Origin: a bacterium | GTDB lineage: Bacteria; Bdellovibrionota_C; UBA2361; SZUA-149; JAQTWB01 | Assembly (NCBI GenBank): GCA_028689495.1 | Contig: JAQTWB010000010.1 | Coordinates: 1-62,272 of the forward strand | Direction: 5' to 3' | Length of the DNA stretch: 62,272 bases | Shown here: piece after piece, positions 45,851-47,441 of the stretch | Layout of the letters: every line of letters starts with the position of its first letter | How positions within the stretch are numbered: the stretch's first letter is position 1 | Made by a program: the position numbers and the translations under genes | Notes under the pieces: generated by a model | What the model was told of the DNA's origin: nothing | The model's input: only the letters and a program-made list of their open reading frames with translations | Databases searched by the model: none

Positions 45851-46000
45851 CGGTAAAAACAACAATTTGAATGTCACTGTTGATTGATATTCACAGAACA
45901 CAACCGTTGTCGCGAATTACACATCGACGATAACATCAACACAGCTGGGCGGACGCAAAGCCCGCGCCCTACGATAAACAACAACAATCTGAATGTCAGC
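45851..46000. repeat. Repeat family A, copy 2 (~1.3 units).
   Basis: Shares ...caacacagctgggcggacgcaaagcccgcgccctacgataaacaacaacaatctgaatgt... with 5490-5690. Confidence 0.6.
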
Positions 46001-46089
46001 GGGAAGAATATTACCATTCATCCCAAGAAGGACCGTTTCGAAACCGTCACGCGAACTTGCCGTGCCCACAGATGTCGGCCCCGCAGATA

Positions 46090-46700
46090 TCAGCATCGAA
46101 AAGCAAACCTTCTGTAAACCAGTTGCCGGATCTACCGCTCGACTTGCAATGCGATAATCAGCAAGGTCGCTGCAGCCATAAAATACGACTTTTCCTTGAA
46201 GCAACCCCTGAGCTCTCGCCCGCTCAACAACCAAACAAACACGTTCGTTGTCTGCACAGACGACAACAAATCCACTCTCCGGGACCTTGCTATTACCCAC
46301 AAGTCTGCAGGAACGAAAATAGTGGCTTCAGTGGGGCAGCAGAGCTCCAGCTCTGCTGCAATTCATATCTCCCGCCAAGCTGCAAATCTGCCGCAAATTG
46401 GCGCAGAGCTGGAGCTCTGCACCCCCGGTATTGCCGTCTGCATGCTGGGAGTGATTTCAAATACGCCCACTTTGCAAGAACATTACCTCTGTTCGATCTC
46501 CAATCGCAACAAGGTAATCTGGTCGGGAACTTGTGGGTAATAGCAAGTCCGGGACAAGAGAAATAGCCTGAATAAACTCATCTTCAATCTGTTCGACGTT
46601 TTCGTAAATATCCGCATGGTCAAACTCAATGCTGGTAATCAGCAGAACATCCGGGCGATAAGAAAGAAATTTGGGCCATTTTGGGAAGGGTGTTCCCGTC
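46090..46700 (-). pseudogene. Internal fragment of an mpl-like Mur ligase paralog (about aa 190-310 of Mpl).
   Basis: About 75% nt identity to 52860-53210 of the intact mpl. ORF 45917-46300 translates to ...PESGFVVVCADNERVCLVVERARAQGLL..VVFYG..DLADY...DPATGLQ, compared with Mpl ...PESGFVVACADNERVRAVVERAQTRGLL..VVFYG..DLADY...DPASGLQ. Confidence 0.6.
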
Positions 46701-46778
46701 AGACTGTATCTGAAGTTTTAGTAACCCGGTTCCACTCCTTCCTCCCCCATTCACAGAGCTTAGTCAGCCCGGCCAGAC

Positions 46779-47441
46779 GTGACTTGTCGATTCAACACAT
46801 ACGTTCAAAAGGATGTTCGCTCTCTCCTGCAGGTCGAGAATCTGACCACATTCGACAAGTTCATGCGAATATGCGCCGGACGCACCGCGCAATTATTCAA
46901 TTATTCAGCAATCGCGACCGATGTCGGCATCTCCCAGCCAACGGCAGTCAAATGGGCAAGCATCCTCGAAGCGAGCTTCCTGACTTTTCGGCTTGAGCCC
47001 CATTTCAAAAATTTCAACAAACGGCTGACCAAGTCCCCAAAGCTCTACTTCCACGACACCGGTCTGGTCTGCTTCCTCTTGCGAATTACATCATCTGCGC
47101 AGTTGGAGAACCATCCGCTTAAAGGAGCAATTTTTGAAAACTGGGTGGTATCGGAAATCCAGAAAAGTTACCGCAATAACGGCACAGAACCTCCTCTATA
47201 CTTCTGGCGGGATCAACACGGCCATGAAGTGGACCTGCTGATTGATAACTCGAGCCATCTCTATCCAATTGAAATCAAGTCTGGCGCCACCTTCCGCAGC
47301 GAATGGCTGGATGGTCTCGCCTGGTTCAACAAACTGCAGGATTTCGACAAGGGCTCGGTTATCTACGGTGGAAATGAGGACTTCAATTTCAAGGATGTCA
47401 TGGTCCAGAGCTGGAGCAGTCTGGCCCCACCTAATACTTGA
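46779..47441 (+). pseudogene. C-terminal fragment of a DUF4143-type AAA ATPase; the N-terminal P-loop domain is missing.
   Basis: ENLTTFDKFMRICAGRTAQLFNYSAIATDVGISQPTAVKWASILEASFLTF...KLYFHDTGLVCFLL matches the middle and C-terminal part of the widespread 'ATP-binding protein, DUF4143' family. Confidence 0.55.

What the first reader, a model, noticed from the sequence alone, without database searches (positions are those of the whole stretch)
45917..47441. Diverged internal fragment of an mpl paralog fused to a 5'-truncated DUF4143 ATPase, 6 kb from the intact mpl
46090-46700 is ~75% identical to 52860-53210 of the real mpl and covers only about aa 190-310, so it is neither a recent duplication nor a complete gene. 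It abuts a C-repeat and then the C-terminal two-thirds of a DUF4143 ATPase. This suggests foreign DNA that previously sat next to an mpl gene in a donor and recombined in near the resident mpl, so the mpl neighbourhood may be a recurrent integration region.
Basis: partly seen in the sequence, partly recalled or inferred. Interest (0 to 1): 0.5.

Follow-up and report, generated by a model that had tools for sequence, protein, structure and literature searches.

The report
Relic of a foreign mpl gene
A dead, roughly 400-base leftover of a second mpl (cell-wall recycling) gene, apparently imported from a related bacterium and then cut down and interrupted by small mobile DNA elements, lies 5.5 kb from the working mpl gene; it is an ordinary scar of gene transfer, not a new system.

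Summary
An mpl-like piece on the minus strand covers Mpl residues 199-327 only. It matches the resident mpl (52216-53781) at 75-81% nt and 69% aa.

This has perfect 19-nt inverted ends and an 8-bp target duplication. Removing it restores an open 131-codon frame.

The piece is not a decayed local copy:
- It is closer to the mpl of a related organism (Logan contig L002: 84% aa, dS 0.55) than to the resident mpl (69% aa, dS about 1.5).
- Most differences are synonymous, so it diverged as a working gene elsewhere.

The surrounding DNA fits import from a relative. Genes downstream of mpl are far more similar to L002 (dS 0.06-0.27) than core genes are (dS 0.7-1.3). A 6.9-kb island there is absent from L002.

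The fragment is not fused to the DUF4143 ATPase. The two are 5'-truncated remnants on opposite strands, head to head across a ~100-bp dispersed repeat element. The same element marks truncation junctions elsewhere. The fragment's 3' end abuts a repeat next to an IS110 transposase remnant.

Verdict: a xenologous pseudogene relic in a flexible island. Interest is low to moderate.

The parts
46548..46690 (-). mpl' 5' piece, encoding the equivalent of Mpl aa 199-245. Its first 8 nt (46548-46555) are one copy of the target-site duplication.
   Evidence: tblastn gives 87% aa to the resident. blastn gives 80.6% to the resident and 93.6% to L002 mpl. The breakpoint is at about 46687-46690.
46286..46547 (.). 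262-bp MITE-like insertion. It has perfect 19-nt terminal inverted repeats (CTTGCTATTACCCACAAGT), an internal 31-nt palindrome and no coding capacity.
   Evidence: (I4, I2) and 10: the 19-mer occurs only as this inverted pair, with 0.01 expected; fold z = -10; excision restores the frame QAISLVPESGF; no Pfam hit on its ORFs. The Logan contig L007 ends 30 nt inside it.
46278..46285 (.). Left copy of the 8-bp target-site duplication TCCGGGAC. The right copy is at 46548-46555.
   Evidence: Read directly from the sequence.
46022..46285 (-). mpl' 3' piece, encoding the equivalent of Mpl aa ~243-327.
   Evidence: tblastn gives 57-59% aa to the resident. blastn gives 74.9% to the resident and 85.2% to L002. 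Homology to L002 ends after CTTCTTGG at about 46022.
45848..46012 (-). Two partial copies (45848-45912 and 45933-46012) of a ~110-nt dispersed repeat. They form the 3' boundary of mpl'. Another copy lies at 5546-5649, and one lies 50 nt downstream of the L002 mpl stop codon (L002 11617-11671).
45693..45832 (+). C-terminal ~46 codons of an IS110-family transposase (remnant).
   Evidence: NCBIfam NF033542, positions 307-342 of 343, E 2.7e-4, far below the family cut-off. PHROG transposase hit, E 6e-4. A further decayed copy lies at 5688-5738.
45554..45693 (+). 140-nt structured dispersed repeat abutting the IS110 remnant. A second copy lies at 9772-9910 (90% identical).
   Evidence: fold z -6.9 and -8.8. 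No Rfam match. The Logan contig L043 ends 30 nt inside it.
46691..46790 (+). Junction 'C-element', about 100 nt with the core AGTAACCCGGTTCCA. It sits between the 5'-truncated mpl' and the 5'-truncated DUF4143 gene.
   Evidence: The related copy in L002 (13279-13335) abuts truncated gene X. Its fold is no better than shuffles.
46791..47441 (+). 5'-truncated AAA_14/DUF4143 ATPase remnant, equal to aa 169-382 of a ~382-aa protein. The P-loop domain is absent.
   Evidence: Pfam PF13635, E 6e-53. 72% identical to aa 169-376 of P0124. Full-length homologues of 380-385 aa carry PF13173 plus PF13635. PADLOC candidate family PDC-S01.
43609..43745 (+). Array of five exact 27/28-nt C-repeat units at the proximal edge of the 6.9-kb island. 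It abuts a 5'-truncated zinc-ADH remnant (about 43750-44286).
   Evidence: L002 has a single unit at the orthologous site.
52216..53781 (-). Resident, intact mpl (521 aa, three Mur-ligase domains). Its start overlaps the aroC stop.
   Evidence: It is syntenic with L002 mpl.

Best explanation
The mpl-like DNA is a non-functional relic of a second mpl gene that evolved as a working gene in a sister lineage. That lineage is closer to the organism of contig L002 than to the host. The relic entered a flexible, recombination-prone island directly downstream of the host's conserved aroC-mpl block.

After arrival it lost both ends and was interrupted:
1. Codons 1-198 are gone at a junction with a ~100-nt dispersed 'C-element'. 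On its other side this element abuts a DUF4143 ATPase gene that has lost its first ~168 codons. This pattern is expected from element-associated deletion, or from recombination between two element copies.
2. Codons 328-521 are gone at a junction with a repeat that sits next to an IS110 transposase remnant.
3. A 262-bp MITE then transposed into codon 245/246, making an 8-bp target duplication.

Shown: the anatomy, the closer relationship to L002, divergence mainly at synonymous sites, and the MITE insertion.

Inferred: the direction and route of transfer, the deletion mechanism, and the absence of function.
For: Relationship to L002:
- The fragment is 84% aa identical to P0004 (L002) and 69% to the resident.
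- Nucleotide identity is 93.6%/85.2% to L002 and 80.6%/74.9% to the resident.
- Nucleotide site patterns: fragment = L002, differing from resident, 76; the other two patterns, 23 and 23. Amino-acid patterns: 24, 4 and 10.
- dS fragment-L002 is 0.55 (bootstrap CI 0.36-0.83). dS fragment-resident is 1.47 and resident-L002 is 1.76. Omega is 0.14-0.16, meaning purifying selection over most of the divergence.

State of the fragment:
- The reconstructed 131 codons have no stop or frameshift.
- Fragment-specific codon changes are 7 synonymous to 6 non-synonymous. L002-specific changes are 6 to 0. This suggests late relaxation of constraint, though the numbers are small.

Orthology of the resident gene:
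- The resident mpl and L002 mpl sit in identical synteny. Their dS of 1.3 is like their neighbours' 1.0-1.2, so they are orthologues.

Flexible island:
- Genes downstream of mpl have dS 0.06-0.27 between the two genomes. Identity switches at the 3' end of mpl.
- A 6.9-kb stretch (43620-50528) is absent from L002, and GC is lower around 47-52 kb.

MITE and junctions:
- MITE: perfect 19-nt inverted ends, an 8-bp duplication, and exact restoration of the conserved QAISLVPESGF on excision.
- C-elements abut truncated genes in three other places: ADH' and the ATPase remnant in the window, and gene X in L002.
- An independent Logan contig, L007, reproduces 46518-49162 at 100%. It spans the mpl' / C-element / ATPase junction.
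Against: - Only one close relative (L002) exists in any searched collection. The donor itself is unsampled, and the polarity of transfer is inferred from three sequences.
- dS of the fragment to L002 (0.55) is higher than that of the shared accessory genes (0.06-0.27). The fragment therefore did not necessarily arrive in the same event as those genes.
- The fragment does not lie next to gene X, as a simple 'mpl plus its downstream neighbours' import would predict.
- The path of the MAG contig through the dispersed repeats at 45554-45693 and about 49133-49156 is not independently confirmed. Proximity to the resident mpl therefore depends on the assembler.
- Absence of function is inferred from missing domains and chance-level promoter matches only.
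Confidence: 0.8

Rival explanations
1. Local duplication of the resident mpl that later decayed in place.
For: The fragment has the same orientation as the resident mpl and lies only 5.5 kb away. It carries some excess non-synonymous change.
Against: The fragment is as far from the resident as L002's orthologue is (70.8% nt in both cases). It shares 76 derived or alternative sites with L002 against 23 with the resident. Divergence from the resident is mainly synonymous (omega 0.14), and the 131-codon frame is still open. Neutral decay would give roughly three non-synonymous changes per synonymous change, plus stop codons.
Confidence: 0.03
2. Assembly or binning chimera. The 45.7-49.1 kb segment belongs to a co-occurring relative and was stitched into this contig through dispersed repeats.
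For: The window is a MAG contig. Logan contigs from the same run all break 30 nt inside repeats that bound this segment. The fragment resembles a relative's gene.
Against: The fragment is truncated at both ends and joined to an unrelated truncated gene within a 100%-identical independent contig. It is therefore a relic wherever it lies. The join across the MITE validates itself, because the frame and the 8-bp duplication are restored. The segment's repeat families, and a paralogue of its 169-aa gene, recur elsewhere on the same contig at 5.5, 6.1-6.9 and 9.8 kb.
Confidence: 0.08
3. Ancient paralogue (hidden paralogy). Two mpl genes existed in the common ancestor. The host kept one intact and the other as this relic, while L002 kept the other.
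For: This would also place the fragment with L002's gene.
Against: The resident mpl and L002 mpl occupy the same slot, with the same aroC overlap, and their dS matches that of neighbouring core genes. An out-paralogue pair should be older than the species split. The fragment-L002 dS of 0.55 is younger than the core split of about 1.0-1.3.
Confidence: 0.04
4. The remnant is functional. Possibilities are a small protein (the annotated 127-aa ORF 45917-46300), an antisense or decoy RNA for mpl, or a homology arm that a mobile element uses to integrate at mpl.
For: NCBI annotated a hypothetical protein here (P0001). The frame is open.
Against: The ORF's start codon lies inside the MITE inverted repeat, and its tail is repeat-derived. 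It lacks the P-loop and both flanking domains. Identity of 75-81% to the resident mpl is poor for antisense pairing. Promoter and terminator matches are at chance level. Apart from the ORF itself, the only database hit was one weak 39%-identical protein.
Confidence: 0.03

Closest known systems
Mpl (UDP-N-acetylmuramate:L-alanyl-gamma-D-glutamyl-meso-diaminopimelate ligase), Mur ligase family
   Same: Clear homology to the central (Mur_ligase_M) domain. The fragment is 69-84% aa identical to two full-length Mpl proteins of the same clade.
   Different: Only residues 199-327 of 521 remain. The N-terminal domain, the P-loop and the C-terminal domain are missing, and the piece is split by a MITE. 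It is a pseudogene fragment, not a ligase.
MITEs (miniature inverted-repeat transposable elements); possibly IS4/IS50-like ends
   Same: 262 bp, perfect 19-nt terminal inverted repeats, an 8-bp target duplication, no ORF with family hits, and strong fold-back structure. From memory, the end CTTGCTATTACCCACAAGT matches 14 of 19 positions of the Tn5 outside end CTGACTCTTATACACAAGT.
   Different: No second full copy and no cognate transposase is present in the window. IS50 makes 9-bp duplications, not 8-bp ones. The Tn5 resemblance is recalled, not tested.
IS- or repeat-mediated adjacent deletions and 'solo' element scars
   Same: Truncated genes end exactly at the borders of a small dispersed element at four junctions in two genomes.
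   Different: The C-element has no recognisable inverted ends, no transposase and no fold. Its mobility or recombination activity is inferred only.
Flexible genomic islands exchanged between related lineages at the edge of a conserved gene block
   Same: There is a sharp switch from core divergence (dS about 1) to near-identity (dS 0.06-0.27) at the 3' end of mpl. The region also shows a 6.9-kb indel, lower GC, mobile-element remnants, a defence-candidate gene remnant and a class D beta-lactamase.
   Different: No integrase, tRNA or att-type direct repeats were found. Only one comparison genome is available.
AAA_14 + DUF4143 ATPases (PADLOC candidate PDC-S01)
   Same: The DUF4143 domain is complete and is 72% identical to a full-length member.
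   Different: The AAA_14 P-loop domain (first ~168 aa) is deleted.

Membership tests
Mpl / Mur ligase | Three-domain architecture (PF01225 N-terminal, PF08245 middle, PF02875 C-terminal) | tested here: not met
   The resident has all three. The reconstructed fragment matches only PF08245 positions 78-157 of 200. No other pieces exist in the window.
Mpl / Mur ligase | ATP-binding P-loop (GTHGKTT, resident aa ~135-145) | tested here: not met
   The fragment starts at aa 199.
Mpl / Mur ligase | Sequence homology to bona fide Mpl proteins | tested here: met
   E 1e-25 and 9e-23 to the resident. 84% aa identity to P0004.
MITE | Terminal inverted repeats | tested here: met
   19 of 19 nt complementary, at 46286-46304 and 46529-46547.
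MITE | Target-site duplication, with an empty site that is restored on excision | tested here: met
   The 8-bp TCCGGGAC is present on both sides. Excision gives QAISLVPESGF, identical to the resident and to L002.
MITE | Small and non-coding | tested here: met
   262 bp. Its internal ORFs have no Pfam hit.
MITE | Multiple copies in the genome | tested here: inconclusive
   No second full copy in the window. A 32-nt internal palindrome recurs at 52151-52182. Logan contigs break 30 nt inside the element, which suggests repetition.
MITE | Cognate autonomous IS with the same ends | not tested
   None is present in the window. The Tn5/IS4 resemblance comes from memory only.
IS110 family element | DEDD-type transposase of about 340 aa | tested here: not met
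   Only profile positions 307-342 of 343 are matched, at 20 bits against a cut-off of 140. It is a remnant.
AAA_14/DUF4143 ATPase (PDC-S01 candidate) | N-terminal AAA_14 P-loop domain together with a C-terminal DUF4143 domain | tested here: not met
   Only PF13635 is present. Homologue aa 1-168 have no counterpart anywhere in the window.
Integrative element that duplicates part of its target gene | Integrase gene, and direct att repeats shared between the intact target gene and the distal fragment | tested here: not met
   None of the island proteins scanned matched an integrase family. The fragment is an internal piece, and no shared repeat was found beyond the mpl homology itself. The resident mpl is not mosaic relative to L002.

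The most novel reading that the evidence does not exclude
The ~75-100-nt 'C-element' has the core AGTAACCCGGTTCCA. It is amplified to 27/28-nt tandem arrays at 43609-43745, and a 21-nt variant array lies at 9504-9586. It may be an undescribed recombination-active element of this uncultured lineage that repeatedly creates gene truncations and island boundaries. It could be the preferred target or partner site of the IS110-family (RNA-guided) recombinases whose remnants lie beside it. In that case the 140-nt structured repeat at 45554-45693 and 9772-9910 could be that element's guide (bridge-like) RNA.
Probability: 0.12. Interest if true: 0.55.

Novelty: new member of a known kind. Interest (0 to 1): 0.25.

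Why it matters
This is a clean, datable example of DNA exchange between related, uncultured bacteria. A gene fragment shows by its synonymous-site pattern that it evolved elsewhere. It lies in a flexible island that starts exactly at the end of a conserved gene block.

It also has practical value for annotation. The 'hypothetical protein' PHC51_03800 is an artefact ORF built from MITE, mpl-relic and repeat sequence. The DUF4143 ORF is a truncated remnant.

It opens no new biology by itself. The repeat elements that mark the breakpoints are the only part that might.

Tried and rejected
- Homologue search with the fragment alone returned only the self ORF and one weak hit.
- Scans of GTDB genomes and JGI metagenomes found no closer relative of the fragment (best 39% and 48%). 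The donor stays unsampled.
- Rfam scans of the region, including permissive ones, gave nothing credible.
- blastn of 45350-47600 against plasmids found no match.
- Viral-contig scans: the MITE end gave 0 hits. The C-core 15-mer gave 29 single hits that look like chance. Three similar phage contigs share only an 18-23-nt stretch and no tRNA.
- The idea that the island is an integrative element using mpl as its att site was rejected. There is no integrase, no att-like repeat and no mosaic resident mpl.
- The idea that the C-element is a hairpin or attC-like site was rejected, because its fold is no better than shuffles.
- A promoter and terminator scan was at chance level.
- Exact-protein look-ups for P0001 and the 308-aa BaxI ORF found nothing on record. 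The 287-aa BaxI start variant did work.
- A literature search on DUF4143 and AAA_14 returned nothing useful.

Full report
**Context.**
The window is a complete 62,272-bp contig of an unclassified NCBI MAG ('bacterium', locus tags PHC51_). The resident mpl is at 52216-53781 on the minus strand. It encodes 521 aa with all three Mur-ligase domains. It follows aroC (53778-54890) and prfB. The nearest named Mpl homologues are only 46-48% identical and come from Bdellovibrionota-type MAGs. One unnamed protein, P0004, is 86% identical. P0004 lies on a 30-kb Logan contig from another run (locus L002).

- The resident Mpl matches two minus-strand stretches: aa 199-245 at 46687-46548, and aa 241-327/329 at 46291-46016/46023. 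E-values are 9e-23 and 1e-25, and nucleotide identities are 80.6% and 74.9%.
- Nothing else in the window resembles mpl or any other core gene of the block.
- The two stretches are separated by a 262-bp element (46286-46547). It has perfect 19-nt inverted ends that occur nowhere else in the window (0.01 expected by chance). It is flanked by the 8-bp direct repeat TCCGGGAC.
- Deleting the element and one repeat copy gives an uninterrupted 131-codon frame. The junction reads QAISLVPESGF, exactly as in the resident and in P0004.
- This is a textbook MITE-type insertion, with a fold z-score of -10.
- The reconstructed peptide hits Mur_ligase_M positions 78-157 of 200.

**Origin of the fragment.**
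- The fragment is 84% identical to P0004 and 69% identical to the resident Mpl.
- At the DNA level it is 93.6% and 85.2% identical to L002's mpl, against 80.6% and 74.9% to the resident.
- Over 387 aligned nucleotides, 76 sites unite fragment and L002 against the resident. Only 23 unite fragment and resident, and 23 are unique to the fragment. The amino-acid counts are 24, 4 and 10.
- Nei-Gojobori estimates: dS is 0.55 for fragment-L002 (bootstrap 95% CI 0.36-0.83), 1.47 for fragment-resident and 1.76 for resident-L002. Omega is 0.11-0.16 throughout.
- Most of the fragment's divergence therefore accumulated under purifying selection, in a working gene.
- The resident and L002 genes are orthologues. 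They have the same aroC overlap and the same flanks, and their dS of 1.3 is like their neighbours' 1.0-1.2.
- The fragment therefore descends from a third lineage that split from L002's after the host lineage did. It is a xenologue.
- A slight excess of non-synonymous change on the fragment's own branch (6 of 13 against 0 of 6 for L002) fits a later neutral phase, but the numbers are small.

**Surroundings.**
- Between the window and L002, core genes (HAD hydrolase, alaS, the 7TMR-HD protein, prfB, aroC, mpl) have dS 0.66-1.3.
- Genes downstream of mpl have dS 0.06-0.27. These are gene X (49620-52031), the 189-aa ORF, a class D beta-lactamase and the C-terminus of the 569-aa ORF.
- The identity switch falls in the intergenic region after mpl.
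- Window 43620-50528 (6.9 kb) has no counterpart in L002. There, gene X is cut at about codon 501 and joined to a single C-repeat unit.
- GC drops to 42-46% around 47-52 kb, against 50-53% in the core.
- In distant relatives aroC-mpl is conserved, but what follows mpl differs: ferrochelatase in one, a lectin-domain gene plus priA in another, and priA directly in a third.
- The 3' side of mpl is therefore the edge of a conserved block and the start of a flexible region exchanged among relatives.
- The fragment's dS to L002 exceeds that of the shared accessory genes. It need not have come in the same event.

**Boundaries of the relic.**
- 5' boundary: homology to both mpl genes stops at about 46687-46690. 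The next ~100 nt (46691-46790) are a dispersed 'C-element' with the core AGTAACCCGGTTCCA.
- Beyond the C-element, on the plus strand, the DUF4143 gene begins at the equivalent of residue 169 of a 382-aa homologue (72% identity). Its AAA_14 P-loop domain is absent from the whole window.
- The two remnants are thus head to head, each lacking its 5' part. They are not fused.
- The same element type abuts a 5'-truncated zinc-ADH at 43750, as a five-unit tandem array. In L002 it abuts the truncated gene X.
- This points to element-associated deletions, or to recombination between element copies. That is inference. The element has no inverted ends and no significant fold.
- 3' boundary: homology stops after codon 327, at about 46022. 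It meets a partial copy of a ~110-nt repeat (45933-46012), followed by another partial copy (45848-45912).
- Other copies of that repeat lie at 5546-5649 and, notably, 50 nt downstream of L002's mpl stop codon.
- Next come the last ~46 codons of an IS110-family transposase (45693-45832) and a 140-nt structured repeat (45554-45693).

**Assembly check.**
- Logan contigs from run SRR22315507 reproduce window 52156-62272, 46518-49162 and 43719-45583 at 99.99-100%.
- The second of these spans MITE end, mpl' 5' piece, C-element and DUF4143. That junction is therefore not peculiar to the MAG assembly.
- All three contigs stop about 30 nt inside dispersed repeats: the MITE, the 140-nt repeat, the C-array, a repeat at 49133, and the palindrome at 52151-52182. 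Those sequences are therefore likely repeated in the sample.
- The MAG's path through the repeats at 45.6 and 49.1 kb remains unverified. This is the main caveat on 'near the resident mpl'.
- Repeat families and a paralogue of the segment's 169-aa gene recur elsewhere on the same contig. That favours a single genome.

**Function.**
Nothing suggests function.
- The fragment lacks the P-loop and two of the three domains.
- The annotated 127-aa ORF (P0001) starts inside the MITE end and finishes in repeat sequence.
- Promoter-like sites are at chance level.
- The DUF4143 remnant lacks its ATPase domain. Its family is a PADLOC defence candidate (PDC-S01), which fits an island rich in accessory and mobile DNA.

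**Verdict.**
This is a xenologous mpl pseudogene fragment in a flexible island, shaped by a MITE insertion and two repeat-associated truncations. 'Fused' is wrong, and 'recurrent integration site' is plausible but untested. The kind of feature is well known. The particular MITE and C-element are undescribed members of known kinds.

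Noticed in passing
window 41703-42473 (+): Intact class D beta-lactamase. It passes the NCBIfam class-D model and its best family is OXA-198. It is 63.3% identical over its full length to plasmid-borne OXA-198 of Pseudomonas and Citrobacter. It lies in the accessory segment that is 92-93% identical to L002.
   Followed up: partly
window 45554-45693 and 9772-9910 (+): A 140-nt dispersed repeat (90% identical copies) with a strongly stable multi-hairpin fold (z -6.9 and -8.8). Its third hairpin differs in sequence but is self-complementary in both copies. 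It has no Rfam match. One copy directly precedes the IS110 transposase remnant, so it may be an IS110-associated ncRNA. This is untested.
   Followed up: partly
window 43609-43745, 44350-44367, 46720-46748, 9504-9586; L002 13310-13335: A repeat family with the core (A)GTAACCCGGT(T/C)CCA. It occurs as tandem arrays of 27/28 nt (five units) or 21 nt (four units), or as single copies. It is repeatedly found exactly where genes are truncated, in two related genomes.
   Followed up: partly
window 45917-46300 (-): The NCBI 'hypothetical protein' PHC51_03800 (127 aa) is an artefact ORF. Its GTG start lies in the MITE inverted repeat, its body is the mpl relic, and its tail is repeat sequence.
   Followed up: yes
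window 48185-49408 and 6043-6860: Two cassette-like units. They carry distantly paralogous small Cys/Ser-rich-tailed proteins (169 aa and 183 aa; 22% identity, E 5e-9) bracketed by shared 25-39-nt sequences. One pair is a 37-nt imperfect inverted repeat (48319-48355 and 49348-49384).
   Followed up: partly
window 49620-52031 (-); L002 11776-13353: Gene X (803 aa, many predicted membrane segments at the N-terminus, no family hit) is mosaic relative to L002. Stretches of 96-97% identity flank a ~300-nt patch of 74-80%. In L002 the gene is cut at about codon 501.
   Followed up: partly
window 43750-44286 (+): A 5'-truncated zinc-type alcohol dehydrogenase remnant. Only the ADH_zinc_N domain remains. 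It is fused in frame to the translated C-repeat array, which produces a spurious 232-aa ORF.
   Followed up: partly
window 52151-52182 and 46330-46361: A 32-nt palindromic sequence just downstream of the resident mpl stop codon is 90.6% identical to the internal palindrome of the MITE. The Logan contig L001 ends inside it.
   Followed up: no
window 54909-55910 (-): The prfB ORF starts at TTG and lacks the first few dozen codons seen in homologues. Logan gene calls in a relative split the gene into 29-aa and 354-aa products. This is consistent with the usual programmed +1 frameshift and was not examined.
   Followed up: no
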